From the NCBI GenBank assembly GCA_008632985.1, contig QPGO01000091.1:248001-312000 (forward strand): a stretch of 64,000 nt of DNA. The letters run 5' to 3'. Source of the DNA: Psammoneis japonica (Eukaryota). Shown here one piece after another: positions 8,427 to 47,300 of the stretch. The notes under the pieces were generated by a model. That model saw nothing but the letters and a program-made list of their open reading frames with translations. It was not told the origin of the DNA and ran no database searches. Each line of letters begins with the position of its first letter. The stretch's first letter is position 1. The position numbers and the translations under genes are program-made.

Positions 8427-11400
8427 TAGTACGCGCGGTCGCGAACTCTCGGGTACTATCCAACAATGAGAGCCCTGACTTTAACGAACCTTCATAGATT
8501 TGATACAGAATCGCCGAACGTTGCAAGCAACCAAAAATCGGTAGATTCTACACTGATGTAATTATTAATGTACAAATACTCTATAAATTTTTAAGCGGGA
8601 CAAAGTTTCCCGAAATAACGTCCTGAACTGTAGTTTCGATATTTTTGAATCATACTATTTTAACGACCACGGTTTTGGTTACCAATGATCAGCGATTTGA
8701 AAAAACCTAAATCCCTTATTACTTTCTAGGTGACGTACAAAGATGATAACTTTCTCTACAAGACCCACCATTTGGCTGGCGTTGCCGTGTAACCGTCAAC
8801 CGTCAAGCTTCCAATCGATTCATTCTCTTTGATGACGGTTTTGATCCCACTGTGCTGTTGAGTTTTGAAAATCGACAGACGAACTGTGTTGTTGTGTGCG
8901 GCACGACGGAAACAACAGGCGTCTGTTTCTCCCCAACAATGCGTAGAAAATCGCGCAAACAGCCCCAAACCACAATGAAATGAAAACTGCAACAAGAAGC
9001 AGGCCTCATTTTGTCAAACTTTCAGTGCTTGCTCACGACAAGCAAGCTGTGATGAGCCAGAATCTCTTGGCACAACATGAACTGGTGGTGGTGTGTTGCG
9101 CAGCAGCTTCCACCAAAACCATGCTCCAAGTGACAAGCTTTGCATGCTTTCATTTTGACATTCCTGAATTTGCTCAGTGCACTTTCTTGGGGCAAGCACA
9201 TGCAAACATGTGCGCTTGCCCCGATTGTTCTGCGTTGCGTCCTGTGCTTTTTGCATGTGTCCCGTTTGTGCACATGAAAGCAACTTTGTGCAGTGTCAGC
9301 AGCCAGCTCTCATTTGCCTGCTTTGGCTCACCACACAGAGCACAGGGACTTCACACAGCGCAGCTCTCTTTTGGCGTTTGTCTGGAAGTCATTCCCGTCA
9401 CACTGCGCAGAACCCCGGCAACAACTCCAGTGCTGGCGGCAACACTCATTTTCTCTCTGAAACATGTTTCCTCATGCTGTGCACAGCCATCCACAACTCT
9501 GCTGCAGAGAAGCCCACTTTTCTGTTTGTTGCTCCTGCTTGCACTTTTTGCAGGTTTGTTTGGTTTTCAAGCATGCTAGCTTGTTGTTGCCTTCCTTTTC
9601 TGCAGGAGCACCCCTTTTCTCAGCAGAGAGAGCTGCAGCTTTTGCAAGCTTCTTGTGTTTGGCTGCTCCAACAAATCTTGGGGGGGGGTGCCATGCCAGT
9701 GAAAAACAAGGAGCTGTGGTGCAAATCATGAGCCAAGTGAGCACACCAGATTTTGAACAAAAACTGATCTTTGGAAGCAGAGATTCTCACCACAGCAATC
9801 TTTTTGTCTGCCTTTTGTTGCTGAAGTTTGTCATTTTGTTGTGCAGAGGAGGAGAGGCATGGAAAGAGCACCCCCACCCTTGCTCCTCTTGTTGTTGCTT
9901 GCCACAGTGGTGTGAAGAGATCACACCACCAGAGTTGAGTGTGATGGCTGGTGCTGGCCAAACTCATTTTTGTGTGTGTGCTCCTTTTCTCTCAAGGTTC
10001 TTCTCTTGCTGGCCCCACACCACCACAATGCAGCAAGCAAATTTCCAAGAAATGGGGAGCAGTGTGCCCACCATTGCTCACACACAAACTGTGCTTTGTG
10101 CACATCAAGTGACATGTTTTTTGAAAATTGTGGTTGATTTTGGCCAAATCAACCTGTTGTTTAAAAATTGCATCAGATTGCCCTGGGTTGCACCAAATTG
10201 CAAGGCAAATTTTCCCAAGAAGTGATGCAATGTGCACTGTTCTTTCAGCAACATCTGCTGCTCATGGCTGCTGGCTTGTGGCTTGTGTGCTGGATGATGT
10301 GGTGACTGAACACCATGCCTGTGTCAAGACACACAGATCCACATTTTGAACATGGACACACCACACCATGATTGTTGAAGATTGTCCTGCTTTGATGTGA
10401 CTGCACACAATGCTCTCAGATGCTGCAGCAGCCTGCTCAAAACATGGTGTGTGGTGGACAACAACTGGATGGCACGCCAGCACACATGTTGCCAACAAAC
10501 AACTGAGGATGCACGCAAATGCCTTGCAATGCAGGCCTTCTAGACAGAGGCAAAAGTGTGCAACACAAGCGCACAAGTTGGGCAAGCCCACACAACTTTT
10601 GCACTCAGCTAGCCCACTGAGCAGATCATGCATTGAGAACATGATTGCAAGCACTGCACACTCAACTGCCTCCCACAAAGTCAAGTAAAGTGTGCAAAAA
10701 GACTTTGCACACAAAGCTGTGCATTGTGCAGCACTTGCTCAGATCCAAGATGATCTTGGAGCAAAGAAGCCATTTGTTGATGTGACAGACAAGGAGAAGA
10801 GTTCTTTGTCCTGCAACTTGTAAAAAAACAACTGACATCACCGCCAGAAAATCCATTTTTGTGAAGAGGAGAACCTCTCCCACCTGGAGAGATGAGCCAG
10901 CCAAAATTTGCAGTCACACCCTTTGAGGTCCTCTGTCATCCAGATTGGGCAGCAGCTGCACGGATGGAGAAGACAACCAAAATTGACATTTTTCACATTT
11001 TCCCTCTCATTGTGGTGTCTTGCTGAGCAAGTTCACACATCTCACTTCACTTGAGCTGCTGCAGAAGCACTCCAGATCTCATGCATTTTGGAGACATTTG
11101 TGGCACAAGGCAAATCCCACACCTTTTCACCTGGATGATTTTGAACCCATGCCAACCCAGATGCAACCAACAGACACCACAGCTCTTTCAGCTGCAGCCA
11201 GCTTGGCCAAACAATCTGATGAGCAGGACTGTCCCTTGGTGTTGATGCCATGTGCCAAAATTTCCTTCCTTGTCTCAGAAGGGATGCAACTCTTGACACT
11301 CAAATGCTTTGTTCATCTGTGATCTGTGTTTGTGACTGAGCACTTCTTGCTGCCATTTCAATCACACTGCTGTTGTCTTCAAATGGTTTTGACAGAAAAA

Positions 11401-14400
11401 GCTCTGTTGCTTGAGTTCATTGGGCACATTTCCATGGAAGAAACAGCTTCTTGTTGCAAAAAGCATGATGAACCAGTGCACTCAGATTGTGGTGTGCTGC
11501 TTGGGCTGTTTCTCAGTCCACAGCTGACATTTTGTAAGAGTTTGGGCAGCCAAGTTGCAGTGTGCCTGCCCATGATGCTGCAGTTCCTTGTTTCCACTGA
11601 AGCAAGTGCCCACATGCAAATTCAAGGTCCTTGTCTTTGACAGGCTTTGGAGTTGTGCCCTTCTTGTTCCTGCCTGGTCTTGCACAAGCACCTGCCAAGC
11701 CACCGGGAGTCACTTTTCCATGCTTTGCCTTCAAATCCACCACAAAACTGTGTGCACTGGTGGGTGGTGTGATCAGTGCTGCTCTTCTGCAAGATGCACA
11801 TTTTTCCAATGACTCAGCTTTCCAACAACCCATCTGCAATTGACAGCGTTGCCAAAGGAGGCCAACCTGGAGCACCTCAACAATGTTTTGTGCCACAGGA
11901 GCAGCCTTTGGCACAGCACTTGGCAAATCCAATTATGAGGCCTTGAGAATGTGGTTGATTGAGAGTGCATTCTGTGTCAAATGCACTGTGCACCATTGTT
12001 TTTCTTTCTAACAACATTGATGCCCAGAAATTTTTGCACATCTCCTTCCACCATGATGTCCAGCTTTGTCTCTTTTCTGAGCAGCTCTTCGATTGCCTTG
12101 TTTTGTCTCCCGTCATCTTTGTCAAGGCCAGCAGCAACAGGCAAAATGTCACATCAGCGCATGAGAGATGAGGCATCTTTCCATGACAGAACTCACACTT
12201 GCATTTCAACAGAGTTTTGTCATTGCTTCCATCAGAGTTGGCTTCTGCACTGCCTTGTCCATTTGCTCTGTTGGCACACTGACACCACTTGGCAGCTCCC
12301 AACACTCAGCACCCCCTTTGAGATCCTTCTGGAGACAAAGTTGCAAGCACAGCACCACCTCCTGTCTCTTTTGGCACATTTGGAAGAGCTTGCAGCTCCC
12401 CTGACTTTTCATCAACAGTTTGATTGCTCTGACATTGTGACCAAGTGGCCAAGCAGCCAAGCAATTCACCGCTGGCAATGAACCTGTTTGGAGGGCAGAG
12501 ATCAAACTTGGCTTGCAACACTGGCAACTCAACCCCATGATTGCCAGCGGGCATGACCCAAGAAGAAGTTCGCAAAAGGAGCACCTCTTTTTCACCTTTT
12601 TGGACATTTTTGAAGCACAACTCTTCACAACTGAAATCACAAAGTCATGCCCAAACTCCATGGTGAGCAAGGCTTGTGTGCTCACCAAGTTTCTTTGATC
12701 ATGGAGGCAAATGCAGTGTGCCACAACAGCTCTTTTTGGTCAGAAGTGATCAAATCAATGGCAACCTCTGAAAAGCTTGAGCTGGGCTTGCAACAAGAAG
12801 GTCTGTCAAATGCCAGGTCAGGCATCAGGCAAGAGGCCCCAACCATTGAAAAACAGCTTTTGCAAGCAAGGGTGAAATCACATTGAGCCATCATTGCAGC
12901 ACGACCAACACAAAAAATTCATGCCATGCAATGCCAACAATTGACATGGCACACATTGCAAAGCATGCAAGCTTCAATCAAAAGAGCTTTCAAGAAGAGG
13001 ATGGTCATCAAGCTGCAAGTTCTGCAACTGGAGCATGCCACTTCATTGGCAACACCCCACAAAACAGCATGATTTAGGAAGAAGTTTGTGAAAGAATGCC
13101 TCCCACTCACATTTGGACATTTTTGAAGCACAGTGCTTCATCTGAACTGACAACATGCTGCACTTTTTCATCACCTTGTTCTTCACCACTTTCAGAAGGT
13201 TCAATGTTTTGCACCCCTCAGGAGCACAAACCGCCAATCTCTGGAGCCAAATCATCTTCAACTCTGCTTCTGATGGCTTCTCTTTGAATCAGAGAAAATT
13301 GGCAAAGTTTGCCTCCCAATCATGCACAACATCATGTTGGCTGGCATGCCGTGCAACCGTCAAGGATTGGAGTCAACAAAGGTTTTGATCCACATGATGA
13401 ACTTGGCCAGAAGCAACAATGCACAGAAAATTGTGCAGACAGCCCCAAGCCACAACTGGGTGAAAACTGCCAGAAGCAGACCTTTCATCAGACTTTGAGC
13501 ATGCTTGCTCATGGCAGAGAAGCTGTTGTGAGCCAGAAAATCTCTCAGAGCACAGTGTGAGCTGGCATTGCACAGCTTCTAAAACTGCACTCTAGACAAT
13601 GAGCTTTGCACATTGTCACTTGCACATCCCTGAGCCCACTCAGCATGCTTTGGAGCAAGCATGCACAAACACACTTGTTCAGCAAGTCCTGTGTCATGGC
13701 ATGTGTTGTGCACAAGAGCAACTCCTCTGCAGGGTGTTGGCAGCCAGCTGCTGCTGATGTTGCCTGCTTGGCTTGCCACACAAAATGTGTGGGGATTTCA
13801 GACAGCACAGCTCTCTTGCTTTTGACACCTGTCTGGAAGTCATCTGCTGGCTTGTGCCAGATGATGTGGACCATGCCCAGTCAAGACACACACAAATCAA
13901 AATTTTGAGCATGGACACACACGTGATTGTCAAATGTTGTTGTTCTGGTCTTGTGCAACTGCATGACACCCCCAGATGGTGCTGCAGCAGCCTGCTCAAA
14001 ACATGGTGTGTGTTGTGGACAACAACCTGATGGCGCACCAGCAAACATGGCACCAAAACAAATGGCCAGCACCAGCAGCCAAATGCCTTGTGATGCAAGC
14101 CTCTTCTGCTGGTGGTGAAAGTGCACAAAACAAATGCACATGTTGGGCAAACCTGCACAATTTTGCACTCAGTGCACAGAGCAGGCAGCAGATTGGCGTG
14201 CATCAAGAACATGAAAGAGATGACGTTGCAGCAAAGAACAAGCCATTTGTTGTCAACAAACATGGAGCTCTTTGTCCTGCAATTTGGGAAAAAACCAGCT
14301 GACATCACACAATCAGAACATTCATTTTTGTGCAGAGGAGCATCTCCCTGAAGCAATGAGCAGTTCAAATTTGCACAGACACAGCATTTGGGGTTGACTG

Positions 14401-15259
14401 TCATCAAGATTGGGCAGCTGTGCTGATGGAGCAGAAGACAACCAGAGCTCAACTGACACATTTTCACAGCCACTCCCTGTCATTGTGGTGTCTTGCTGAG
14501 CAAGTTCACAAATCATCACTTGAGCTGCAAAAACATGCCAGATTCCATGCACTTTTGAGAGATGTGTGGCAGGACAAAGCCCCCTCACCTTGTTGCATTT
14601 TCACACGGGTGATTTTGAGGGCTGCTTGCCAACCCCAAGGATGCAACCAATGGACACCACAGCTCTTTCAGCTGCAACCAGTTTTGTGAAACAATTGGGT
14701 GGCCAGTCTTGATGTGTGGTGTGCTAAAATTTCCTTCCTCTTGTCTCAGAAGGGGCACAACTTGACATTCAAGTGTGTTGTTCATCCATGATCTGTGCTC
14801 ATGAGCACTTGCCATTTCAAGCACAGTGCTGTTGTCTTCAGACAGTTTTGAGTTTTGACAGAAACAACTCTTTCACTTGAGTTCATTGTGCACTTCCATG
14901 GAAAGGACAGCTTTTTGCAAGGAGCACAATGAGCCAGTGTGCTCAGATCATGGTGTGCTGCTTGGGCTGTTTTTCAGTCTGCAGCTGACATTTCCAGAGA
15001 GTTAAATGGCCAAATTGCACAACTGCATTCCCATGTTGTCCTCCCTTCTTGTTGCCACTGAAGTGAGTGCCCACATGCAAAATTTAAGGACCTTGCCTTT
15101 GACAAGCTTCAGAATTGTGTCCTTCTTCTTCCTGGTCTTGCACAAGCACCTGCCAAGCCAATGGGAGTCATTTTTCTGTGTGGGCTTTGTTCTCAGATCT
15201 GCCATGAACTGTGTGCATTGGTGGGTGGCTGGTGGGTGCAGCACTGCTCTTCTGCAAGC
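8427..15259. mobile_element. Repeat copy A (6.8 kb) of a degenerate, unclassified element; nearly identical to 17389-24202
   Basis: Direct alignment with copy A' at an offset of about 8960 bp; starts TAGTACGCGCGGTCGCG; identity ends at ...CTTCTGCAAGC; interior depleted of TpA and CpG. Confidence 0.85.
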
Positions 15260-16689
15260 CATCTGCTTTTGTCGAATTTCTCGGCCGCTCAAGTTCTGGG
15301 ACATTTTCTTTGGCAGATCCCACACTCCGTCTGTAGAAAAATCCCTGTCTTGCTCCACTTCTTCTTCATTCGGAGGATGGCTGGAAGGGTTATACGCAGA
15401 ATCTGCATCCAACTTTACCCCCACAGACACGCGTATTGGCACTCGATTTCTGTCATCTTTTTTCCTCGACCTTTTGCGCCGGTGTGCAGTTTCCCATGGA
15501 AGCACGTTGTTCGCTTCTTCCACCATTTTTGAACTCCAATCTTTTTGAATGAATGCACCCGAGCGCTCACCAACGCACGCAGGAGACTGACAGAATTGGC
15601 CATTGAATGCTGCTGCTTTGACACGACGAACAAAATGACCCAAAGATGCGCGGCCACCTGGCGGGGGGGCGACAACAAATTTTGTGTTGGAATCAATCTT
15701 CTTCAAATTTTCCATCAAACAGGCAGTGTCAGTTTGGTGTTGCTTTGCAGGGCCAAGTGGGGACACTTCCAATTCGACTCCCACCCTTTCATCCTTGACC
15801 AGTTCTGTTCCACAACCTGCTTCCACGACTTGAGCTCTTCGATTGGACGACGCGGATGATTTTGGTTTCTTCGGCTTCTTGCAGCAAGACAGACAAGATC
15901 AAGGATCACCAAGGTGACTTTCCCTTGGCTGTCGCATCGGCGTTCTGCCACATGGTCTGCCGCCATTCGCCAAGACAAATCTGAATTCACGGGCTGCAAA
16001 ACAACCTTCCTCGTTGTCTTGAAGGGTTCCTCTGGCAGTTTAGGTTCAGATCGTGAGAAGAGAACTGCACTCGTTTTGTTGATGTCCGTGAGTGCAAGGT
16101 CCTTGCAAGATTCGATTGAACACATGAAATCATTTGTGGCGTCCTTGACATCACTGAGTGAGGAATGGAAGTGCAAACCAAGATTGTGAACGGTTTCACC
16201 TTGGTTGTTGTTGAGTGGGTGGTCACCAAACACCGGACTTGACTTCGTTTGGTGTAGCGAGAGACGCACTGCAACTGGAACATCTGAAGCTGCCTCCATC
16301 TCGTTTTCATTGGCAGCATCAAACTCCTCGGCTGTCATGCATCCACCAGTCAAATGCTGACTCAAATCCTCATGTTGTCCAATGTCAGCGCGTTCACTAG
16401 AAGAATCAATGGAAGAGGAATCACTGGAGGATTCGCTTGATGAGCTGCAAGTGCTTTGGATTTCGATGTTGACGAAAGGACTCCGATTCTCTTTGTCAGC
16501 ATTCGTCGCAACGGCATCGGTGCTTTCCTCCGTCGACGTGTCAACAATGGACTTTGCTTGGCGTTTCTTGGTGGAGCTGTTACACTTCCTTTTATTGCGG
16601 TTGAAATCTTCCTCTTCTTTTCGAGATTCGTCTGCTTCCCGTTGCTTTTGGGACAACACACGCTTGTGGGGAGATCTGGTTGACCGCAT
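15260..16689 (-). pseudogene. Segment B: long, mostly intact ORF of unknown (probably TE) origin, Tyr-eroded and truncated at its 3' end by copy A
   Basis: ATG at 16689 (MRSTRSPHKRVLSQ...), acidic/Ser-rich N-terminus, one frameshift near 15740-15800; the 430-aa ORF 15715-17007 has no Tyr while CpG is abundant. Confidence 0.55.
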
Positions 16690-17388
16690 GTCCGATGTAG
16701 CGTGATCTTTTCGAGACCACAAAGAAGAGATTCGATCAAAGAAGTGTGAGCAAAGAGACGAAAAGGATGAATGAACATCAAAAGACCACACGAGTGCGAC
16801 CGACATTTCTCTCCACAAAACAAACAGACAACATGCACAAGACAGGGGATGATTTTTGCATCTACAACAAAGAGATGACAGCAATGGCACGCAACAGAGG
16901 AGGTGCATTGAACGAATGAACATCAAAGTGTGGATTGTGTCAATTCCATGTGTTTTGGTGTTTCTTGTCGATGCGAGAGAACGATGTTTCTCGACACAGC
17001 CCCCCACTCACAGCACACCCAAGACACAGAAAACTTTTCGTGACTGTGGTCAGTCGATGTCAGCAAAGGCAGTCATCAGATGAAGTGAAATGAGCGAACA
17101 AACATCCGAGTGTGGGTTTTGCCGCTCAGAAATGGCCAAGACAAAAGCAAAAAGACCCATCTTTCGATTTCTGCACAACCACAACGCCGTTTCTCGCCAA
17201 ACCAAGGCTCTCACCTAACAAGTCGACCTCCCAAAAGCAACATCCGTGTCTTCAATGAACGAAAACGATGAAGAATGGGTCAAACAAGGCCGAGTGTGGG
17301 TCGGCGCAGCGTCATCTCCAAAAAAACAACTTCACGTTCCGAAAAAAAGTCTCGCCGCGCTTAATCCCACGGATCGCGCGAAAAGCAA

Positions 17389-20300
17389 TGGTGCGCGTGG
17401 TCGCGAACTCTCGGGCACTGTCCAACAATGAGAGCCCTGACTTTAACGAACCTTCATAGATTTGATGCAGAATCGCCGAATGTTGCAAGCAACCAAAAAT
17501 CGGCAGATTCTACACTGATGTAATTGTCAATGTACAAATGCTCCATAAATTTTTAAGCGGGACAAAGTTTCCCGAAACAACGTCCTGAACTGTAGTTTCG
17601 ATGTTTTTGAATCACACTGTTTTAACGACCACGGTTTTGGTTGCCAATGATCAGCGATTTGAAAAAACCTAAATCCCTCACATTGCTTTCTGGGTGACGT
17701 ACAAAGATGACAACTTTCTCTACAAGACCCACCATTTGGCTGGCGTTGCCGTGTGACCGTCAACCATCAAGCTTCCAATCGATTCATTCTCTTTGATGAC
17801 GGTTTTGATCCCACTGTGCTGTTGAGTTTTGAAAATTGACAGACGAACTGTGTTGTTGTGTGTGGCACGACGGAAACAACAGGCGTCTGTTTCTCCCCAA
17901 CAATGCGTAGAAAATCGCGCAAACAGCCCCAAACCACAATGAAATGAAAACTGCAACAAGAAGCAGGCCTCATTTTGTCAGACTTTCAGTGCTTGCTCAC
18001 GACAAGCAAGCTGTGATGAGCCAGAATCTCTCAGCACAACATGAACTGGTGGTGGTGTGTTGCGCAGCAGCTTCCACCAAAACCATGCTCCAAGTGACAA
18101 GCTTTGCATGCTTTCATTTTGACATTCCTGAATTTGCTCAGTGCACTTTCTTGGGGCAAGCACATGCAAACGTGTGCGCTTGCCCCAATTGTTCTGCGTT
18201 GCGTCCTGTGCTTTTTGCATGTGTCCTGTTTGTGCACATGAAAGCAACTTTGTACAGTGTCAGCAGCCAGCTCTCATTTGCCTGCTTTGGCTCACCACAC
18301 AAAGAGCACAGGGATTTCACACAGCGCAGCTCTCTTTTGGCGTTTGTCTGGAAGTCATTCCCGTCACACTGCGCAGAACCCCGGCAACAACTCCAGTGCT
18401 GGCGGCAACACTCATTTTCTCTCTGAAACATGTTTCCTCATGCTGTGCACAGCCATCCACAACTCTGCTGCAGAGAAGCCCACTTTTCTGTTTGTTGCTC
18501 CTGCTTGCACTTTTTGCAGGTTTGTTTGGTTTTCAAGCATGCTGGCTTGTTGTTGCCTTCTTTTTCTGGAGGAGCACCCCTTTTCTCAGCAGAGAGAGCT
18601 GCAGCTTTTGCAAGCTTCTTGTGTTTGGCTGCTCCAACAAATCTTGGGGGGGTGCCATGCCAGTGAAAAACAAGGAGCTGTGGTGCAAATCATGAGCCAA
18701 GTGAGCACACCAGATTTTGAACAAAAACTGATCTTTGGAAGCAGAGATTCTCACCACAGCAATCTTTTTGTCTGCCTTTTGTTGCTGAAGTTTGTCATTT
18801 TGTTGTGCAGAGGAGGAGAGGCATGGAAAGAGCACCCCCACCCTTGCTCCTCTTGTTGTTGCTTGCCACAGTGGTGTGAAGAGATCACACCACCAGAGTT
18901 GAGTGTGATGGCTGGTGCTGGCCAAACTCATTTTTGTGTGTGTGCTCCTTTTCTCTCAAGGTTCTTCTCTTGCTGGCCCCACACCACCACAGTGCAGCAA
19001 GCAAATTTCCAAGAAATGGGGAGCAGTGTGCCCACCATTGCTCACACACAAACTGTGCTTTGTGCACATCAAGTGACATGTTTTTTGAAAACCTGTTGTT
19101 TAAAAATTGCATCAGATTGCCCTGGGTTGCACCAAATTGCAAGGCAAATTTTCCCAAGAAGTGATGCAATGTGCGCTGTTCTTTCAGCAACATCTGCTGC
19201 TCATGGCTGCTGGCTTGTGGCTTGTGTGCTAGATGATGTGGTGACTGAACACCATGCCTGTGTCAAGACACACAGATCCACATTTTGAACATGGACACAC
19301 CACACCATGATTGTTGAAGATTGTCCTGCTTTGATGTGACTGCACACAATGCTCTCAGATGCTGCAGCAGCCTGCTCAAAACATGGTGTGTGGTGGACAA
19401 CAACTGGATGGCACGCCAGCACACATGTTGCCAACAAACAACTGAGGATGCACGCAAATGCCTTGCAATGCAGGCCTTCTAGACAGAGGCAAAAGTGTGC
19501 AACACAAGCGCACAAGTTGGGCAAGCCCACACAACTTTTGCACTCAGCTAGCCCACTGAGCAGATCATGCATTGAGAACATGATTGCAAGCACTGCACAC
19601 TCAACTGCCTCCCACAAAGTCAAGTAAAGTGTGCAAAAAGACTTTGCACACAAAGCTGTGCATTGTGCAGCACTTGCTCAGATCCAAGATGATCTTGGAG
19701 CAAAGAAGCCATTTGTTGATGTGACAGACAAGGAGAAGAGTTCTTTGTCCTGCAACTTGCAAAAAAACAACTGACATCACCGCCAGAAAATCCATTTTTG
19801 TGAAGAGGAGAACCTCTCCCACCTGGAGAGATGAGCCAGCCAAAATTTGCAGTCACACCATTTGAGGTCCTCTGTCATCCAGATTGGGCAGCAGCTGCAC
19901 GGATGGAGAAGACAACCAAAATTGACATTTTTCACATTTTCCCTCTCATTGTGGTGTCTTGCTGAGCAAGTTCACACATCTCACTTCACTTGAGCTGCTG
20001 CAGAAGCACTCCAGATCTCATGCATTTTGGAGACATTTGTGGCACAAGGCAAATCCCACACCTTTTCACCTGGATGATTTTGAACCCATGCCAACCCAGA
20101 TGCAACCAACAGACACCACAGCTCTTTCAGCTGCAGCCAGCTTGGCCAAACAATCTGATGAGCAGGACTGTCCCTTGGTGTTGATGCCATGTGCCAAAAT
20201 TTCCTTCCTTGTCTCAGAAGGGATGCAACTCTTGACACTCAAATGCTTTGTTCATCTGTGATCTGTGTTTGTGACTGAGCACTTCTTGCTGCCATTTCAA

Positions 20301-23300
20301 TCACACTGCTGTTGTCTTCAAATGGTTTTGACAGAAAAAGCTCTGTTGCTTGAGTTCATTGGGCACATTTCCATGGAAGAAACAGCTTCTTGTTGCAAAA
20401 AGCATGATGAACCAGTGCACTCAGATTGTGGTGTGCTGCTTGGGCTGTTTCTCAGTCCACAGCTGACATTTTGTAAGAGTTGGGCAGCCAAGTTGCAGTG
20501 TGCCTGCCCATGATGCTGCAGTTCCTTGTTTCCACTGAAGCAAGTGCCCACATGCAAATTCAAGGTCCTTGTCTTTGACAGGCTTTGGAGTTGTGCCCTT
20601 CTTGTTCCTGCCTGGTCTTGCACAAGCACCTGCCAAGCCACCGGGAGTCACTTTTCCATGCTTTGCCTTCAAATCCACCACAAACTGTGTGCACTGGTGG
20701 GTGGTGTGATCAGTGCTGCTCTTCTGCAAGATGCACATTTTTCCAATGACTCAGCTTTCCAACAACCCATCTGCAATTGACAGCGTTGCCAAAGGAGGCC
20801 AACCTGGAGCACCTCAACAATGTTTTGTGCCACAGGAGCAGCCTTTGGCACAGCACTTGGCAAATCCAATTATGAGGCCTTGAGAATGTGGTTGATTGAG
20901 AGTGCACTCTGTGTCAAATGCACTGTGCACCATTGTTTTTCTTTCTAACAACATTGATGCCCAGAAATTTTTGCACATCTCCTTCCACCATGATGTCCAG
21001 CTTTGTCTCTTTTCTGAGCAGCTCTTCGATTGCCTTGTTTTGTCTCCCGTCATCTTTGTCAAGGCCAGCAGCAACAGGCAAAATGTCACATCAGCACATG
21101 AGAGATGAGGCATCTTTCCATGACAGAACTCACACTTGCATTTCAACAGAGTTTTGTCATTGCTTCCATCAGAGTTGGCTTCTGCACTGCCTTGTCCATT
21201 TGCTCTGTTGGCACACTGACACCACTTGGCAGCTCCCAACACTCAGCACCCCCTTTGAGATCCTTCTGGAGACAAAGTTGCAAGCACAGCACCACCTCCT
21301 GTCTCTTTTGGCACATTTGGAAGAGCTTGCAGCTCCCCTGACTTTTCATCAACAGTTTGATTGCTCTGACATTGTGACCAAGTGGCCAAGCAGCCAAGCA
21401 ATTCACCACTGGCAATGAACCTGTTTGGAGGGCAGAGATCAAACTTGGCTTGCAACACTGGCAACTCAACCCCATGATTGCCAGCGGGCATGACCCAAGA
21501 AGAAGTTCGCAAAAGGAGCACCTCTCTTTCACCTTTTTGGACATTTTTGAAGCACAATTCTTCACAACTGAAATCACAAAGTCATGCCCAAACTCCATGG
21601 TGAGCAAGGCTTGTGTGCTCACCAAGTTTCTTTGATCATGGAGGCAAATGCAGTGTGCCGCAACAGCTCTTTTTGGTCAGAAGTGATCAAATCAATGGCA
21701 ACCTCTGAAAAGCTTGAGCTGGGCTTGCAACAAGAAGGTCTGTCAAATGCCAGGTCAGGCATCAGGCATCAGGCAAGAGGCCCCAACCATTGAAAAACAG
21801 CTTTTGCAAGCAAGGGTGAAATCACATTGAGCCATCATTGCAGCACGACCAACACAAAAAATTCATGCCATGCAATGCCAACAATTGACATGGCACACAT
21901 TGCAAAGCATGCAAGCTTCAATCAAAAGAGCTTTCAAGAAGAGGATGGTCATCAAGCTGCAAGTTCTGCAACTGGAGCATGCCACTTCATTGGCAACACC
22001 CCACAAAACAGCATGATTTAGGAAGAAGTTTGTGAAAGAATGCCTCCCACTCACATTTGGACATTTTTGAAGCACAGTGCTTCATCTGAACTGACAACAT
22101 GCTGCACTTTTTCATCACCTTGTTCTTCACCACTTTCAGAAGGTTCAATGTTTTGCACCCCTCAGGAGCACAAACCGCCAATCTCTGGAGCCAAATCATC
22201 TTCAACTCTGCTTCTGATGGCTTCTCTTTGAATCAGAGAAAATTGGCAAAGTTTGCCTCCCAATCATGCACAACATCATGTTGGCCGGCATGCCATGCAA
22301 CCGTCAAGGATTGGAGTCAACAAAGGTTTTGATCCACATGATGAACTTGGCCAGAAGCAACAATGCACAGAAAATTGTGCAGACAGCCCCAAGCCACAGC
22401 TGGATGAAAACTGCCAGAAGCAGACCTTTCATCAGACTTTGAGCATGCTTGCTCATGGCAGAGAAGCTGTTGTGAGCCAGAAAATCTCTCAGAGCACAGT
22501 GTGAGCTGGCATTGCACAGCTTCTAAAACTGCACTCTAGACAATGAGCTTTGCACATTGTCACTTGCACATCCCTGAGCCCACTCAGCATGCTTTGGAGC
22601 AAGCATGCACAAACACACTTGTTCAGCAAGTCCTGTGTCATGGCATGTGTTGTGCACAAGAGCAACTCCTCTGCAGGGTGTTGGCAGCCAGCTGCTGCTG
22701 ATGTTGCCTGCTTGGCTTGCCACACAAAATGTGTGGGGATTTCAGACAGCACAGCTCTCTTGCTTTTGACACCTGTCTGGAAGTCATCTGCTGGCTTGTG
22801 CCAGATGATGTGGACCATGCCCAGTCAAGACACACACAAATCAAAATTTTGAGCATGGACACACATGTGATTGTCAAATGTTGTTGTTCTAGTCTTGTGC
22901 AACTGCATGACACCCCCAGATGGTGCTGCAGCAGCCTGCTCAAAACATGGTGTGTGTTGTGGACAACAACCTGATGGCGCACCAGCAAACATGGCACCAA
23001 AACAAATGGCCAGCACCAGCAGCCAAATGCCTTGTGATGCAAGCCTCTTCTGCTGGTGGTGAAAGTGCACAAAACAAATGCACATGTTGGGCAAACCTGC
23101 ACAATTTTGCACTCAGTGCACAGAGCAGGCAGCAGATTGGTGTGCATCAAGAACATGAAAGAGATGACATTGCAGCAAAGAACAAGCCATTTGTTGTCAA
23201 CAAACATGGAGCTCTTTGTCCTGCAATTTGGGAAAAAACCAGCTGACATCACACAATCAGAACATTCATTTTTGTGCAGAGGAGCATCTCCCTGAAGCAA

Positions 23301-24202
23301 TGAGCAGTTCAAATTTGCACAGACACAGCATTTGGGGTTGACTGTCATCAAGATTGGGCAGCTGTGCTGATGGAGCAGAAGACAACCAGAGCTCAACTGA
23401 CACATTTTCACAGCCACTCCCTGTCATTGTGGTGTCTTGCTGAGCAAGTTCACAAATCATCACTTGAGCTGCAAAAACATGCCAGATTCCATGCACTTTT
23501 GAGAGATGTGTGGCAGGACAAAGCCCCCTCACCTTGTTGCATTTTCACATGGGTGATTTTGAGGGCTGCTTGCCAACCCCAAGGATGCAACCAATGGACA
23601 CCACAGCTCTTTCAGCTGCAACCAGTTTTGTGAAACAATTGGGTGGCCAGTCTTGATGTGTGGTGTGCTAAAATTTCCTTCCTCTTGTCTCAGAAGGGGC
23701 ACAACTTGACATTCAAGTGTGTTGTTCATCCATGATCTGTGCTCATGAGCACTTGCCATTTCAAGCACAGTGCTGTTGTCTTCAGACAGTTTTGAGTTTT
23801 GACAGAAACAACTCTTTCACTTGAGTTCATTGTGCACTTCCATGGAAAGGACAGCTTTTTGCAAGGAGCACAATGAGCCAGTGTGCTCAGATCATGGTGT
23901 GCTGCTTGGGCTGTTTTTCAGTCTGCAGCTGACATTTCCAGAGAGTTAAATGGCCAAATTGCACAACTGCATTCCCATGTTGTCCTCCCTTCTTGTTGCC
24001 ACTGAAGTGAGTGCCCACATGCAAATTCAAGGACCTTGCCTTTGACAAGCTTCAGAATTGTGTCCTTCTTCTTCCTGGTCTTGCACAAGCACCTGCCAAG
24101 CCAATGGGAGTCATTTTTCTGTGTGGGCTTTGTTCTCAGATCTGCCATGAACTGTGTGCATTGGTGGGTGGCTGGTGGGTGCAGCACTGCTCTTCTGCAA
24201 GC
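17389..24202. mobile_element. Repeat copy A' (direct duplicate of 8427-15259), continuing to about 25420
   Basis: Near-identical to copy A apart from TpA/CpG-type transitions, a deletion of about 25 bp (copy A 10128-10152) and small indels. Confidence 0.85.
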
Positions 24203-25420
24203 ACATCTTTCCAGTGACTCAGCTTTCCAACAACAACCCATTTGCAGTTGACAGTGTTGCCAAAGGAAGCTGAGCTGAAGCACCTTGATGGTGTCTTGCC
24301 ACCAGAGCATCTTTTGGCACAGCACTTGGCAAATCCATTCATGAGAAATTGAGAATCTGGATGATTGACAGTGTGGTTCTGTCAAATGCATTGTGCACCA
24401 AAATTGTTCTCACAATGTTGATGCCCAGCAAATCTTTCTCATCTCCTTCCACCATGATGTGTCCAGCTTTGCCTCTTTGCTGAGCTCCTTGATCACCTTG
24501 TTTGTTCCATCTTTGTCAAGGCTGGCAACAGCAGATGTCATTGGCATGTGAGAGATGAGGCATCTTTCCATTGTGGAAACTCATGCCAATTTCTGGTTGC
24601 CATTGGGGTCCTCAAATGCACAGAGCACCTTTGGCACCAACAAGACTTTAGATTGGTCTTGCCGAACCACAAAGCTCAACAATGCAAGCTTTCACTTTTG
24701 CTTCATCAGTCTTGTTGCTGAAATTTTGTTGACCAGCCACCACTTGTTCAACACTTTGCTGGCTTGTTTTCTTGGGGGATGTTCACATTTCAACAGAGCT
24801 TTGTTGTTGCTTGTGTCATCACTTCCTTTGGCCTGCTCACCAGCTGGCTTTTGCACCCTGATCCATTCACCCCCCTTGACACACTGACTCCACTTTGTGA
24901 CCCCCTCAAACTCACCCTCTGAGGTCCTTCCAGAGATTGAGTTGCAAGCCAGCACTGCCTCCTGTCTCTTTTGGCACATTTGGAAGAGCTTCCAGTTGCC
25001 CTGACTTTTCATCAACAGTTTGGTTGCTCTGACATTGTGACCAAGAGGCCAAACAATTCACCACTGGCAATGAACCTGTTTGGAGGGGGGAGAGATCAAA
25101 CTTCTTGGCTTGCAACATTGGCAACTCAACCCCATGATTGCCAGCGGGCATGACCCAAGAAGAAGTTTGCAAAAGGAGCACCTCTCTTTCACCTTTTTGG
25201 ACATTTTTGAAGCACAATTCTTCACAACTGAAATCACAAAGTTCTGCACTTCTTTGTCATCTTGTTCTTTGTGACTGTCAGAAAGTCCAACCCTTTGCAA
25301 CCCTTGGGAACACAAGCCATCAATCTCCAGAGCCACACCATCTTTCTAATCTGATTCAATGGCTTCTCTTAAACCGGAAAAAATTGGCAAAGTTTGCCTC
25401 CCAATCATGTGCAACACTGT
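22420..25420. repeat. Older, more diverged internal repeat unit of the A element
   Basis: Shared blocks recur, e.g. GGACATTTTTGAAGCACAA(C/T)TCTTCACAACTGAAATCACAAAG at about 12602, 21539 and 25199; AAATTGGCAAAGTTTGCCTCCCAATCATG at about 13296, 22240 and 25381; GCTGCAGCAGCCTGCTCAAAACATGGTGTGTG at about 10422, 13981, 19361 and 22925. Confidence 0.75.
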
Positions 25421-27628: not shown

Positions 27629-28043
27629 TCGTCTGATTGAAAAAGAGGGAAACAGAACAACTGGGGACTTAAGACCAAAGAAAAATCCAAAATGATGGCG
27701 GCGAAATGGCCACGCTCGCTCCGACTCCTCACGATGGAGAGTGCGCTCGCTCCACTCTCCACCCGCGCGCGCTCGGCGCTCAGACGAACAATGGCACATG
27801 CGCTGCTGCTGCAAAAACAACTGACGGGAGATCGTTGGATTGCCAACCTTGGACGCCTGTTGAATGTCTAATAGGAGGGCTCTTTTTTACCATGCCATCT
27901 ATCTTAGGATACTGCAGCGAATAGAAACGAGACACCGGCAGCTAGTAGCTAGATAGCACGCCAGCGAAAGCGATCAGGCAGAGCACTTCTCTTTCTCCTC
28001 TTCAAGATACGAACTCGTGTGCAGAGAGAGCGATTCCGCTGAC

Positions 28044-30853: not shown

Positions 30854-31096
30854 GCCAGTCTCATTTTGTTTGTGTCAAATGCCCAGCACTGAAAATCATG
30901 TCCAGCACTGTTTGAAGCTGTTTTGCTGGACTTTTTTGGCAGTTTTGGATGAAAGGCATGTCACACAACAATTGAGCCAGCCTCATTTTGTTTGTGTCAA
31001 ATGTTCAGCACTGAAAATCATGCCCAGCACTGTTTGAAGCTGTTTTGCCAGATTTTTTTGGCTGTTGCACAAAAGGCATGTCACGCGACAATTGAC
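30854..31096 (+). repeat. Two-copy tandem repeat, period 122 bp
   Basis: GCCAG(T/C)CTCATTTTGTTTGTGTCAAATG...CAGCACTGAAAATCATG.CCAGCACTGTTTGAAGCTGTTTTGC at 30854 and 30976. Confidence 0.85.
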
Positions 31097-44190: not shown

Positions 44191-44192
44191 CG

Positions 44193-44575: not shown

Positions 44576-47300
44576 TCCATCTCCATCTCCACAATTGCAC
44601 ACCAGAGTCATTTGTTGAACGGTGTTGTGCAACAAATGTTGACAGTGTCAATGACATCACCACATTTGACCTGCACTGTGCCATCAGCCAGCATGTGCTG
44701 CCATTGTTGTCACATGCGGCCCAACACAGGGCTGTTCTAATTTTGGGAGTCTCTTTTGTACAGTGTCTTTTCTCCTGCCCCATGCATGTGCGGAGCATGT
44801 CAAGCATTCTCACAAGCATTGTTTTAATTTGTGATTTCTTGTTTTTGTTTCTGGACAAAGTTCCAACCAGCAATGTGCTGGACACTGAAAATCATGTCTC
44901 TGTTGAAGAAGCCTGGTTGTTCTGGTGTGGCTTGCACAGCAGCATGACACACAGAATGCACTGCAAACGCCACTGCTGACAGCTGACAACATGCCAGAGA
45001 GTGGATCATCTGCATCCAGGGGTGCATTTTGCAGGTCCAATGTGCACAGCACACATTGCCTGGCACTTGATGCAGCATGTGTTCAATGATTGTGCTTGCT
45101 TGTGGATTTTGTGCAGTCATGAGCTCACATTTGGTGCCACAGTCCTCTTGAACCATGTTTCTGAGTTGGTGTCCGACAAACTCATCACCACAGTCAACAA
45201 TGGCCATGGACATCTGCTCAACCACATTCTTTCTAATGGCCCAGCTGCAGTTGTGGATTCCTCATTTGGAGTTTCCAAAACTTCAAACCATCCAGTTGCT
45301 GGATCAACCATTGTCAAACATTTTAGGACCAAGGGTTTCTTCTTCCCCTTGCAATGCATCTTGTGTGGTTCAATGAGATCCACACATGGCCATTCCCATG
45401 GCACCAATTCTGTGCACTTGGGGGGCAAATGTCCACATTTCTTCTGTTTCTTCTTGAGCTGTTGGCGTGTCTCACATTTTGACACAGTTGTTGTGAGATT
45501 GTTTCTTCTGTTCCATTTGTGCCAGGGTGAAGAAGGCACATGTGGCACCAATCTGTCACTGCCTTTTACAGTGTCTTTGGTGCAATGACTTTGTTCTCAT
45601 GACATGTGAGCAACCGGTCTTGCTCACCTCCACAGAAAGTGTTTGGATGACATGTTGCATTCTTTGACAATTTAGAGAGAATGTCTTTGTCCTGTCACTG
45701 TTCAGTGTCAAGAACTTTGCATGATGATGGAAAGACATTATCACAGGATTTTGGTGGGACCTTTTCAGTCAATTCTTCTGTGCTGAGATTTTCCATGGGC
45801 TCCATTTTTCTCACAGTGAGTTGGCTGATCACATTTGCAACAATGTTGGCCTTGCCCTTGAGGCAAATTGTTTTGTGACTGCATTTCTTCTGTCACTGGA
45901 CACCAATGCATGACTCTGTCTGTTGTGAAGTTCTTGTGTGTGAGATTTTTGTGATCTGTGCACACACTCATCTGTTGGCCAAACAGCACATTTCAGAACT
46001 CTTTCAGTGTGTTTCCACAACAGACAGCAATTGTTTTTCTGCTGCAGCACAATGCGTCTGTGCTCCATTCAGCTTGCGGCTGCAGAAAGCAACAGGCCAG
46101 TTGTTCTGCACAACAACCACCCCCAATTGAGAATTGCTCACACCAGCACATGTCTCAAAGGGTTTGTTGAAATTTGGGTTTGATGACAGCACAACTTTTG
46201 AAATTGTGCGCTCTATGTTGTGGAAGGCTTTTTGTTCCATTTTGGTCCATTGCCACTTCACCTTGGATGAGGCATGTGATTGTCAAGGCCACATGTCTCA
46301 ACAGCAGTTGATCACCCCCACAAAGCTTTGCAATTCCTTGCAAGTTCTGGGAGGAGCTGCAATCATGCAAATTGCCTCCACTTTCTTTGATGTTGGTCTG
46401 GCACCTTTGTGGGCAACATGAAAGCCCAGACAGCCCACCTTCGATGTTGGGCAGAGGGAAATGGAGTGCACATTGATCTCTTGCCCAGTTCATGAAAGTC
46501 AGACAGGAACCAAACTTGACCATTTTTCTTTGGTTGAATGAAGGCAAGAGCCACCCATTTGAAACAATTTGTTTTTCTTAAGACTTTCAACTTGCACAGT
46601 CTTTCAACTTCCTTTCAAGTGGTCACATCCAAGGCTTGTGGTGCAGGAAATGGCTTTGTGTGACATGGACTTGTGCCCAACCTCAACTTGAGATCCACAG
46701 GTTTCCCGGTCCACTCACCCAGAGAACCATTGAAAAGGTCTTCAAATCTTTTTAGGAGGAAATTCAGCTGCTTCTGCTCCTCTGGAGTTAGATGAGTTGC
46801 CGCTGCAGCCACATTGTTGGGGGTGGCAGCATGACAGTCTGAGCCAAGCATCCAACTGACCCTGTCATTAAGACCAGTCACGGCATGAGATTCCTCAACA
46901 TGACCAGCAATCAACTTGAAAACATCAGCATTGAAGAGTGCATCAACATTTTTCACAGGTGCAGTTGCATCCTCTGTGCACATGAAATGCACACGACAGT
47001 GCATGTTGCAACTGTCTCAGGCCCTGCTCCATTCCATGACCCCCACTCTTTGATTGAGAATGTCCCAGTCATTTGACCTGCATTGACAGCTTCAAGCACC
47101 ACTTTGACAGACATGGCTGACGACACGAGGGTCCAACAATCACCCAGCAAACCCTTTGTTGCTGCACTCTTTGCACTTTCAAGTTCACTGGTGTGGGCCA
47201 CAGTTCTTTCACAGGATGGCATCAATGCATCCCTTGCTGAACTGTTGCTCATTGGACTTGATGTGATGAACCTGTCTCCTGGCATGCTTTTTTGAAACAA
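44576..47300 (-). mobile_element. Degenerate Ty3/Gypsy pol (RT N-terminus, RT thumb, RNase H, integrase, GPY/F); RT catalytic core deleted; matching 5' LTR not found
   Basis: LLKRFEDLFNGSLGEW...FIQPKKNGQVWFLSDFHEL..FPLPNI; FVGVINCC*DMWP; QLGVVVVQNNWPVAFCSRKLNGAQ..EKQLLSVVE; VCTDHKNL; GHLPPK..PWEWPCVDLIEPH..LTMVDPATGWFE..WLSRCPWP; NPQASTIIEH; KLEQPCVGPH. Domain order RT-RH-INT is Gypsy. Confidence 0.92.

What the first reader, a model, noticed from the sequence alone, without database searches (positions are those of the whole stretch)
15260..17388. TpA loss is uncoupled from and precedes CpG decay: a Tyr-free 430-codon ORF with CpG intact
Segment B keeps abundant CpG (about 13 CG against 1 TA in 15901-16200) and a nearly intact frame, yet ORF 15715-17007 has no Tyr, with His/Cys at plausible Tyr positions (GQHEDLSQHLTGGCMT, KCPHL). 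The same TA-lost/CG-kept state appears at block margins (about 8780-8960, 27600-27850, 31600-32000, 54800-55950). Inference: the TpA mutator is faster than, and not a by-product of, 5mC deamination. The TA:CG state gives a two-stage clock for how long a sequence has been silenced.
Basis: partly seen in the sequence, partly recalled or inferred. Interest (0 to 1): 0.78.

Follow-up and report, generated by a model that had tools for sequence, protein, structure and literature searches.

The report
TpA-first erosion of a silenced gene fragment
A truncated gene lodged between two copies of an eroded repeat has lost nearly all its TA dinucleotides (hence its tyrosines) to TG/CA while keeping its CG, and comparison of copies suggests a fast TA-specific mutator, recently reported in one alga, that runs about five to seven times ahead of CG decay.

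Summary
Segment B (15265-17390) has 14 TA against 110 CG. Host-gene ORFs in the window have 32 TA and 61 CG per kb. The 430-codon frame has no Tyr.

The frame contains a real gene remnant of 474 codons, starting at the Met at 16689 and cut at 15265. Its only homologue, P0001, has 19 Tyr, so the family is not natively Tyr-free.

B lies between two 98.6% identical 6.8-kb copies, A1 and A2. In the 500-bp margin of A2 beside B, 19 of 31 TA became TG/CA and 5 of 31 CG became TG/CA. None of 377 other sites changed, and A1 lost nothing. Short-read contigs of the same coded organism carry the A2-type letters at 12 of these 24 sites. They also show a version of B's left end with 7 more TA and 3 more CG. 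Four of those sites are polarised by P0001.

In 200-bp windows, 67 are TA-low only and 0 are CG-low only.

TA loss is therefore a separate, faster process than CG loss, about 5-7 fold per site. Both act in the same domain, so "uncoupled" overstates it. The "clock" reading is plausible but unproven.

TpA-to-TpG/CpA hypermutation was described in a 2026 preprint on Bigelowiella natans. That text does not mention CpG.

The parts
15265..17390 (.). Segment B: single-copy-in-window insert between the two copies of A. TA-depleted (14 TA, o/e 0.10) with CG kept (110 CG, o/e 0.89).
   Evidence: no relative elsewhere in the window
15265..16689 (-). Remnant of a P0001-like gene of unknown family. It runs from the Met at 16689 and is cut exactly at the A1|B junction, which corresponds to about residue 475 of the 743-aa homologue. 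It has 474 codons, 1 Tyr, 13 His, 11 Cys, 0 stops and 8 CGA codons.
15715..17007 (-). It is made of 106 upstream non-homologous codons, about 270 true codons and about 55 out-of-frame codons behind the frameshift.
15871..15885 (-). 1-nt frameshift in the window. A short-read contig of run X1 has an extra T behind 15878, which joins the two frames as in the homologue.
15262..15880 (.). Left part of B. The X1 contig differs from the window at 10 sites, and at all 10 the window has TG/CA where the contig has TA (7) or CG (3).
16716..17390 (.). Right part of B, upstream of the gene. Summed contig depth in X1 is 92-549 against about 45 for the rest of B. Other copies branch off at 17389, so this is the end of a repeated element.
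8429..15264 (.). A1, first copy of the 6.8-kb duplicate. Its core from about 9000 is nearly free of TA and CG.
17391..24208 (.). A2, second copy, 98.6% identical to A1. It continues without a break into an older repeat copy beyond 24208.
8429..8930 (.). A1 margin, with normal TA and CG (31 each). It is the upstream region of the ELO elongase gene (7223-8177, minus strand).
17391..17892 (.). A2 margin, the duplicate of that upstream region, now beside B. 19 of 31 TA became TG (11) or CA (8). 5 of 31 CG became TG (4) or CA (1). 0 of 377 other sites changed.
   Evidence: X1 contigs carry the A2-type letters at 12 of the 24 sites; 4 had no informative cover; at 8 only an A1-type contig was seen
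46007..46282 (-). RT_RNaseH_2 remnant (E 1.1e-13). It is the only Pfam match above the curated cut-off among 112 ORFs from the TA/CG-free blocks, and marks one block as a retrotransposon relic.

Best explanation
Segment B is a fragment of a repeated, probably mobile, element. It consists of a multicopy terminal region plus the N-terminal two thirds of an orphan gene. It sits at the junction of a recent 6.8-kb duplication inside an old, fully eroded repeat block.

The block is the target of a domain-restricted hypermutation that turns TpA into TpG or CpA (A-to-G on either strand). This is the process reported in 2026 for integrated viral DNA of Bigelowiella natans. The same domain loses CpG to TpG/CpA at roughly a fifth to a seventh of the per-site rate. 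I infer that this second arm is 5mC deamination.

B and the neighbouring duplicated promoter fragment entered the domain recently, so they have lost most TA and only about 15% of CG. The old cores have lost both. The frame stays open and Tyr-free because TA-to-TG/CA removes TAT/TAC and TAA/TAG and can never turn a sense codon into a stop. CGA-to-TGA, by contrast, will break the frame later.

Shown here: direction, site specificity, relative rates, restriction to one copy, and the coding origin of the frame.
Inferred: the enzyme (an adenine deaminase, as the preprint proposes), methylation of the CpGs, silencing, and time rather than methylation state as the cause of CG retention.
For: 1. Whole window: TA o/e 0.29, CG 0.60, CA 1.53, TG 1.50. 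In the cores TA is 0.04 and CG 0.12. The cores lose 0.0859 TA+CG per bp and gain 0.0868 CA+TG per bp, so the books balance.

2. A1 against A2. In the margin, 19/31 TA and 5/31 CG changed, all in A2, and 0/377 other sites changed. In the core, 13 of 6164 non-YR sites differ (0.21%). This puts TA loss at roughly 900 times and CG loss at roughly 170 times the per-lineage background; that scaling is my arithmetic.

3. A1's margin is the upstream region of a host ELO gene. Only its displaced duplicate is hit.

4. X1 short-read contigs match the A2-type letters over 17437-17643. That covers 12 of the 24 differences, 11 TA and 1 CG. On this subset alone the figures are 11/20 TA against 1/11 CG, p 0.02.

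5. In B, 15262-15880, all 10 window-versus-contig differences are TG/CA in the window against TA (7) or CG (3) in the contig. At codons 47, 115, 134 and 138 the contig's L, V, L, V equal the homologue P0001, while the window has P, A, P, A. The window is therefore the derived state.

6. The one homologue in 1.84 billion representative proteins (E 3e-45) has 19 Tyr. The remnant has 1 Tyr in 474 codons.

7. Nesting: 67 windows are TA-low only and 0 are CG-low only. Of 9 block edges, 4-5 have a TA-lost/CG-kept zone of 0.2-1.4 kb, 4 are sharp, and none is reversed.

8. Old repeat copies differ mainly by paired CA/TG mismatches: 28/112, 10/39, 6/19 and 4/11 of adjacent double mismatches, against 2/32 in a TA-normal control. 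This is the trace of independent loss after copying.

9. The preprint (Results and Discussion read) reports TpA-only A-to-G/T-to-C mutation at about 6e-7 per site per generation in two integrated viral regions, and 124 TpA-depleted, CpA+TpG-enriched clusters.
Against: - The organism is coded and no genome is held. I could look for neither a deaminase nor a DNA methyltransferase, and I cannot say whether this is B. natans.
- Methylation and silencing were not measured. B's CG retention may reflect unmethylated CpGs rather than youth.
- At 8 of the 24 margin differences (17681-17863) only an A1-type contig was seen in X1, at depth 87. This could be bubble popping in contig building, a real difference between DNA preparations, or consensus miscalls in the window's assembly.
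- The 10 differences in B's left end and the 1-nt frameshift could likewise be miscalls at modified bases in a long-read assembly.
- The polarity of the A-margin changes rests on parsimony and on A1's continuity with the ELO gene. There is no outgroup.
- In the B. natans experiment only 1 of 211 NCLDV-region mutations was not A-to-G or T-to-C. The CG arm seen here was therefore not seen there.
- Foreign origin of B is not shown. There is no Pfam, PHROG, PDB, Atlas, viral-contig or metagenome relative.
- Of 9 homologue Tyr positions, only 3 are His or Cys in the window.
Confidence: 0.75

Rival explanations
1. Space, not time. The TA mutator covers a wider footprint than CpG methylation. B and the block margins lie inside the first footprint but outside the second. 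Their TA-lost/CG-kept state would then be a steady state and would carry no age information.
For: Nesting (67 TA-only windows, 0 CG-only) and graded edges are equally expected under this reading. In the B. natans experiment the TpA mutator ran with almost no G/C-to-A/T change. Four of 9 edges are sharp, with no intermediate zone.
Against: In the A2 margin, CG was lost in the same 500 bp and over the same time as TA (5/31 against 0 in A1 and 0/377 other sites). In B's left end 3 of 34 CG were lost. CG decay is therefore active where TA decay is, only more slowly. B's CG o/e of 0.89 is slightly below the host value (P 0.049).
Confidence: 0.2
2. Technical artefact. The window comes from a long-read assembly in which modified bases at TA and CG are miscalled as TG/CA. 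Part of the apparent loss would then be consensus error.
For: The window has a 1-nt difference in a short T run that the short-read contig does not share. The 10 substitutions against that contig are all at YpR sites. From 17681 on, only A1-type letters are seen in X1.
Against: Short-read contigs agree letter for letter with the TA/CG-free A core (15100-15259) and with four contigs of B between 15851 and 16666. They also carry the A2-type letters at 12 margin sites. The window's remaining 5 TA and 31 CG in 15262-15880 agree with the contig. A1/A2 differences beyond 17644 include 2-bp and 25-bp indels, which miscalls do not make. At most a minority of sites is open to this reading.
Confidence: 0.1
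3. One machinery for both arms. A single domain-bound activity, for example a deaminase that accepts both A and C as the preprint cites for ADAT2 enzymes, makes both YpR transitions. CG loss would then not be spontaneous 5mC decay.
For: Both changes occur in the same tracts, only in the targeted copy, and both far above background. The end product is the same, with exact mass balance. The preprint's text says BjADAT2 edits A and C in DNA (I did not read the source paper).
Against: The contexts differ: the mutated A follows T, whereas the mutated C precedes G. The B. natans experiment saw almost no C/G change. No enzyme could be sought here.
Confidence: 0.12
4. Native composition or selection. 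The gene family is naturally TA-poor and Tyr-free, or TA is selected against.
For: Coding DNA in the window is somewhat TA-poor (o/e 0.37-0.64).
Against: The homologue has 19 Tyr. B's TA is five times below the coding control. A non-coding promoter duplicate lost 61% of its TA while 0 of 377 other sites changed. 8 of the 10 changes in the gene alter the protein.
Confidence: 0.02
5. RNA editing followed by retro-copying. ADAR-type A-to-I editing of a transcript with a 5' U preference, fixed by reverse transcription.
For: The 5' T preference matches ADAR (preprint Discussion). One block holds an RT/RNase H relic.
Against: The A2 margin changed in place, after a DNA-level duplication of a promoter region, on both strands equally (11 TG, 8 CA). 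AA is not depleted (o/e 1.21 in the cores against 1.19).
Confidence: 0.03

Closest known systems
TpA hypermutation of integrated viral DNA in Bigelowiella natans (Mettrop et al., bioRxiv 10.64898/2026.01.13.699255). I read the outline and abstract, the Results and Discussion in full, and term-search passages elsewhere.
   Same: Only TpA is hit, giving TpG or CpA on either strand. The rate is about three orders of magnitude above background. The long-term signature is kb-scale clusters depleted in TpA and enriched in CpA+TpG. Many unannotatable ORFs lie in such clusters. Reverse-transcriptase domains are among the targets.
   Different: Here the end state is far more extreme: TA o/e 0.04, against a Rho of 0.45 for their NCLDV region. 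CpG is lost in the same domains. Their main text has 0 occurrences of 'CpG', and their experiment saw 1 non-A/T change in 211. A duplicated host promoter fragment is hit here. The organism is not identified; unaffected DNA has 3.9% TpA against the 6.0% they report.
Repeat-induced point mutation (RIP) of ascomycete fungi (general knowledge, and as summarised in the preprint's Discussion)
   Same: Dinucleotide-specific transition hypermutation that erodes repeated or foreign DNA and leaves blocks with skewed dinucleotide content.
   Different: RIP makes CpA into TpA, so TA rises and stops are created. Here TA falls and no stop can be created. RIP mutates both copies of a duplication, whereas here only the copy embedded in the block changed (0 losses in A1's margin).
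CpG decay by 5-methylcytosine deamination in methylated repeats of vertebrates and plants (general knowledge)
   Same: CG goes to TG/CA with matching CA/TG excess. It is confined to repeat blocks while genes keep CG o/e near 1.
   Different: Methylation was not measured here. The CG loss rate relative to background (5/31 against 0/377) looks higher than ordinary decay. It also always trails a TA loss that has no counterpart in those genomes.
APOBEC3 and ADAR hypermutation of retroelements in animals (general knowledge; PMC4866542 seen only in the search listing)
   Same: Deaminase-type, context-specific editing used against mobile DNA. ADAR prefers a 5' U.
   Different: Those act on replication intermediates or RNA and are fixed on copying. 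Here resident chromosomal DNA changed in place on both strands.

Membership tests
TpA-to-TpG/CpA hypermutation (B. natans type) | Mutations are A-to-G / T-to-C transitions falling on TpA | tested here: met
   19 of 24 A-margin changes and 7 of 10 B-left changes are TA to TG/CA. The other 8 are CG to TG/CA. No change falls outside a YpR site in those tracts.
TpA-to-TpG/CpA hypermutation (B. natans type) | Rate orders of magnitude above the local background | tested here: met
   61% of TA sites were lost against 0/377 other margin sites and 0.21% (13/6164) in the core.
TpA-to-TpG/CpA hypermutation (B. natans type) | Long-term signature: clustered TpA depletion with CpA+TpG enrichment | tested here: met
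   Cores have TA o/e 0.04, CA 1.89 and TG 1.86. Blocks are 1-9 kb long.
TpA-to-TpG/CpA hypermutation (B. natans type) | Targets are foreign DNA (virus or transposon) | tested here: inconclusive
   One RT_RNaseH_2 relic. B's upstream part is multicopy. B's gene has no family assignment. One target is a duplicated host promoter fragment.
TpA-to-TpG/CpA hypermutation (B. natans type) | No accompanying C/G mutation | tested here: not met
   8 CG-to-TG/CA changes sit among the 34 recent changes, and the cores are CG-free. This may be a second, independent process in the same domain.
TpA-to-TpG/CpA hypermutation (B. natans type) | Episodic activity that differs between lineages | tested here: inconclusive
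   The window and the X1 contigs of the same coded organism differ by 10 YpR transitions in 619 bp of B. An assembly artefact or a second allele is not excluded.
Fungal RIP | C-to-T at CpA giving a rise in TpA; both copies of a duplication mutated | tested here: not met
   The direction is opposite (TA lost). Only A2's margin changed.
5mC-driven CpG decay | CG to TG/CA with CA/TG gain | tested here: met
5mC-driven CpG decay | The CpGs concerned are methylated | not testable with these tools
   No methylation data. Only contigs of three runs were available.
Adenine-deaminase (ADAT2/TadA-like) DNA editing | A deaminase is encoded and acts on DNA in a T-A context | not testable with these tools
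   No genome is held. The only hint is indirect: oriented TAC and TAT are depleted 5-10 times more than TAA and TAG in the cores, and the base after the mutated A is C or T in 14 of 19 margin events (Fisher p 0.05).

The most novel reading that the evidence does not exclude
A chromatin-domain-bound, two-armed YpR eraser. One targeting system drives both TpA and CpG to TpG/CpA in whatever DNA lies inside an eroded repeat block, including host DNA that lands there by duplication. It is still active: two DNA data sets of the same organism differ by 10 such changes in 619 bp. It spares reading frames in its first phase, so it disarms genes by missense and by erasing stop codons rather than by nonsense. 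The TA:CG ratio then dates entry into the domain. This may be happening in a species other than the one alga where TpA hypermutation has been reported.
Probability: 0.3. Interest if true: 0.85.

Novelty: new member of a known kind. Interest (0 to 1): 0.64.

Why it matters
TpA-specific hypermutation of nuclear DNA has so far been reported once, in a 2026 preprint based on mutation-accumulation lines.

This window shows what the process leaves behind over evolutionary time: kb-scale blocks with TA and CG both near zero and an exact CA/TG mass balance. It also offers an internal calibration, a recent duplicate in which the same 500 bp is untouched in one copy and has lost 61% of TA and 16% of CG in the other.

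Three things follow:
- an estimate, from one duplicate pair in one window, of the relative speed of the two decays;
- evidence that targeting follows position in a domain rather than sequence identity or copy number, which separates it from RIP;
- an explanation for the many long, unannotatable, Tyr-free ORFs that gene callers will predict in such DNA.

If the CG arm proves mechanistically linked, the system would be a new kind of dual genome defence.

Tried and rejected
- Whole genome: none is held for this window.
- Earlier findings of this scan: none by place, words or sequence.
- Family searches for the ORF, the second frame and P0001: Pfam gave nothing at or above the cut-offs. PHROGs gave nothing. 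PDB sequences gave only low-complexity matches, best E 0.014. The ESM Atlas gave no usable hit.
- The search for homologous proteins with the 430-aa frame: 3114 candidates, none at E <= 0.001, lengths 236-753 only.
- P0001-like loci: none in viral contigs or metagenome contigs.
- P0001's 90% cluster has one member, from one 2913-bp Logan contig, with no name.
- AlphaFold2 of P0001 without an alignment: mean pLDDT 35.5. The model is unusable, so I ran no fold search.
- Sequencing runs: 3 runs of one sample and one study, all kept as contigs. No RNA holder is listed, so there is no evidence on expression either way.
- Parts of the laid stretch without informative cover (17391-17436) are left open.
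- B against the rest of the window: one 31-bp blastn match and no tblastx match.
- Literature searches for other cases of TpA loss in repeats found only the B. natans preprint. Two searches for DNA methylation in Bigelowiella found nothing relevant. bioRxiv supplements are closed, so the preprint's Fig. S8, which plots TpA against other dinucleotides, may bear on CpG and was not seen.
- Rejected: gBGC, because the CG-to-TG/CA changes go against it.
- Rejected: chance length of the ORF.
- The +1 pyrimidine preference is only borderline in the direct events (p 0.05). It was not seen in the 7 B-left events, where the following base is C in 3 and G in 4.
Full report
**What the window is.** The 64-kb window looks like nuclear DNA of a eukaryote with compact genes. 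Stop-to-stop ORFs match a protein kinase, an ABC-F ATPase, an NSUN2-type methyltransferase, a glycerate kinase, a leucyl-tRNA synthetase and an ELO elongase. No whole genome is held, and the organism of the only matching sequencing runs is coded. Between the genes lie kb-scale blocks in which TA and CG are both almost absent: 0-4 of each per 500 bp. In 25.6 kb of such cores TA o/e is 0.04 and CG 0.12, while CA is 1.89 and TG 1.86. In 27.3 kb of unaffected DNA the values are 0.55, 1.02, 1.20 and 1.16. The cores lack 0.0859 TA+CG per bp and carry 0.0868 extra CA+TG per bp. The missing dinucleotides can therefore be fully accounted for as transitions to TG/CA.

**The observation.** It is correct.
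- Segment B (15265-17390) has 14 TA and 110 CG. The stretch 15901-16200 has 1 TA and 13 CG.
B's TA deficit has P 1.9e-15. Its CG is only marginally low, P 0.049.
- The listed margins hold up, except that 8780-8960 is too short to stand alone.
- Across the window, of 320 200-bp windows, 149 have neither dinucleotide low, 104 have both low, 67 are TA-low only and 0 are CG-low only.
- Of nine block edges, four or five have a TA-lost/CG-kept zone of 0.2-1.4 kb, four are sharp and none is reversed.

**The ORF.** A Tyr-free open frame is partly automatic in TA-free DNA, because TAT, TAC, TAA and TAG cannot occur. Even so, the 430-codon frame exceeds all 1000 dinucleotide-preserving shuffles (mean 166, maximum 316-385).
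- A search of 1.84 billion representative proteins found exactly one relative, P0001 (743 aa, E 3.2e-45). It comes from a single unnamed 2913-bp Logan contig.
- tblastn shows that P0001 residues 5-277 align to 16674-15877 in one frame, and residues 305 to about 475 align to 15793 to about 15265 in another. The start Met aligns at 16689.
- The confident homology stops at the A1|B junction, so the gene is truncated.
- The frame change is a single missing base. A short-read contig of run X1 has an extra T behind 15878, which joins the frames as in P0001.
- The true remnant is therefore 474 codons with 1 Tyr, 13 His, 11 Cys and no stop. The last roughly 55 codons are out of frame.
- P0001 has 19 Tyr, so the family is not natively Tyr-free.
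- Of nine P0001 Tyr positions in the alignment, the window has Cys, Cys and His at three, Tyr at one, Phe at three and Val at two. This is weak support for the Tyr-to-His/Cys reading, at 41-50% identity.

**Direct evidence for the mutator.** B lies between two copies of a 6.8-kb segment: A1 at 8429-15264 and A2 at 17391-24208, 98.6% identical. A2 runs on into an older repeat copy without a break, while A1 is cut by B. The arrangement is therefore a recent duplication of A with B at the junction.
- The left 500 bp of A is ordinary DNA in A1 (31 TA, 31 CG). It is the upstream region of the ELO gene at 7223-8177 on the minus strand.
- In A2 the same 500 bp, now flanked by B and the eroded core, has lost 19 of 31 TA (11 to TG, 8 to CA) and 5 of 31 CG (4 to TG, 1 to CA). 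A1 has lost none. None of 377 other aligned sites differs.
- In the core, 13 of 6164 sites outside TA and CG differ, or 0.21%.
- The per-site decay ratio of TA to CG is 5.4 (Fisher p 5.5e-4).
- Because only one copy is hit, duplication as such is not the trigger, unlike RIP. Position inside the block is.

**Independent reads.** Contigs of run X1 (same coded organism; depth about 45 for single-copy parts) were laid on 15100-18100.
- They agree exactly with the TA/CG-free end of A1 and with four contigs of B between 15851 and 16666.
- They carry the A2-type letters over 17437-17643. That covers 12 of the 24 margin differences. On this subset alone 11 of 20 TA and 1 of 11 CG changed, p 0.02.
- From 17681 to 17863, at eight differences, only an A1-type contig of depth 87 was seen. 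Four differences near 17391-17420 had no informative cover.
- In B's left part (15262-15880) the X1 contig differs from the window at ten sites. At all ten the window has TG/CA where the contig has TA (7) or CG (3). Read in the gene's frame, the contig has Leu, Val, Leu, Val at codons 47, 115, 134 and 138, which are exactly the residues of P0001. The window has Pro, Ala, Pro, Ala. The window is therefore the derived, more mutated state.
- In that stretch 7 of 12 TA and 3 of 34 CG were lost. Pooled with the margin, the totals are 26 of 43 TA and 8 of 65 CG, a rate ratio of about 7.
- I cannot tell whether the window-versus-X1 differences are a later lineage, a second allele or consensus error at modified bases. 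The 1-nt indel shows that the assembly and the reads are not identical.

**Older copies.** Pairs of old repeat copies inside the blocks (74-89% identical) differ most often by paired CA/TG mismatches: 28 of 112, 10 of 39, 6 of 19 and 4 of 11 adjacent double mismatches. A TA-normal repeat pair shows 2 of 32. This is what independent resolution of an ancestral TA or CG into TG in one copy and CA in the other would leave. The blocks therefore descend from repeated elements that still held TA and CG when they were copied. One block keeps an RT_RNaseH_2 relic at 46007-46282. That relic is the only match above its curated cut-off among the 112 block ORFs scanned.

**Why the frame survives.** Enumerating the changes shows that T-to-C or A-to-G at TpA never turns a sense codon into a stop. 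TAA becomes TGA or CAA. TAG becomes TGG or CAG. TAT and TAC become TGT/TGC or CAT/CAC. Changes in other codon positions give no stop. The TA phase therefore removes Tyr and stop codons and leaves frames open. CGA-to-TGA in the CG phase can break them, and the remnant still has 8 CGA codons. This explains 'Tyr-free, frame nearly intact, CpG intact' as a stage and not a coincidence. It also predicts many spurious long ORFs in such DNA.

**What is known.** A full-text search found one directly relevant paper: Mettrop et al., bioRxiv 10.64898/2026.01.13.699255. I read its Results and Discussion.
- In mutation-accumulation lines of Bigelowiella natans, 231 of 302 nuclear mutations fell in two integrated viral regions. 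230 of those were A-to-G or T-to-C, all on TpA, at about 6e-7 per site per generation.
- The authors propose an ADAT2-like adenine deaminase.
- Their main text has no occurrence of 'CpG' or 'trinucleotide'. Their supplements could not be opened.
- Further searches found no other case and nothing on cytosine methylation in that alga.

The TA mutator itself is thus already described. Its relation to CpG decay, its extreme end state and its action on displaced host DNA are not in that text. I cannot say whether this window is from that species. Unaffected DNA here has 3.9% TpA against the 6.0% they report.

**Verdict on the interpretation.** TA loss is faster than CG loss and mechanistically distinct from it. 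That part is supported. 'Uncoupled' is too strong, because CG-to-TG/CA is also far above background in the very same tracts and only in the targeted copy. The clock reading is consistent with B and the A2 margin. Both entered the domain at the duplication, and both show most TA gone and about 15% of CG gone. The alternative, that B's CpGs are simply unmethylated, could not be tested.

**Mechanism.** I favour A-to-I deamination at T-A on either strand. The residual TA of the cores hints at this. 49 of 76 lie in YTAR, the one context in which both adenines are followed by a purine. Oriented TAC and TAT are retained at 0.034 and 0.014 of the normal level, against 0.171 and 0.107 for TAA and TAG. 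In the margin events, 14 of 19 mutated adenines are followed by C or T (p 0.05). The seven B-left events do not show this (3 C, 4 G). The enzyme, the methylation and the silencing are all inferred, not shown.

Noticed in passing
window 8429-24208: An A1-B-A2 arrangement: a 6.8-kb duplication (98.6% identity) with a 2.1-kb unrelated insert at the junction. A2 continues into an older repeat copy beyond 24208, whereas A1 is cut at 15264. It looks like a tandem duplication with a junctional insertion. The mechanism was not resolved.
   Followed up: partly
window cores (1-1400, 9000-15250, 18000-27000, 30000-31000, 36000-38500, 42100-47500): 49 of the 76 residual TA lie in YTAR. Oriented TAC and TAT are depleted 5-10 times more than TAA and TAG. 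This hints that the mutated A is preferentially followed by a pyrimidine. The B. natans preprint's main text does not mention it.
   Followed up: partly
same cores: Residual CG is enriched in GCGC and GCGT and poor in TCGA and TCGT relative to unaffected DNA. CG flanked by A or T seems to decay faster.
   Followed up: no
window 16716-17420: Summed contig depth in run X1 is 92-549 against about 45 for the rest of B, with several contigs branching away (loose ends at 16783, 16928, 17005, 17321 and 17389). The region upstream of the B gene is a multicopy element whose end coincides with the B|A2 junction.
   Followed up: partly
window 54800-55950: An isolated TA-poor island (12 TA, o/e 0.16) with moderately reduced CG (46, o/e 0.67). 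It lies between the glycerate kinase gene and the next gene, has no eroded core beside it, and its ORFs have no Pfam match.
   Followed up: partly
window 46007-46282 (-): An RT_RNaseH_2 domain remnant (E 1.1e-13) inside a TA/CG-free block. It is a relic of an LTR-type retrotransposon.
   Followed up: no
window 9068-9069 vs 18032-18033: A1 has TG where A2 has CA, a double change at one YpR step. It presumably passed through a TA or CG intermediate.
   Followed up: no
window 3388-3723 and 3749-4081: Two adjacent copies, 70% identical, of a roughly 335-bp unit in TA-normal DNA. I used them as the control and did not characterise them further.
   Followed up: no
window 50688-50815 and 59033-59127: Pfam profile coordinates jump across about 90-110 nt between adjacent ORF pieces of the NSUN2-like and LeuRS genes. 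This suggests a few short introns. The arithmetic is mine.
   Followed up: no
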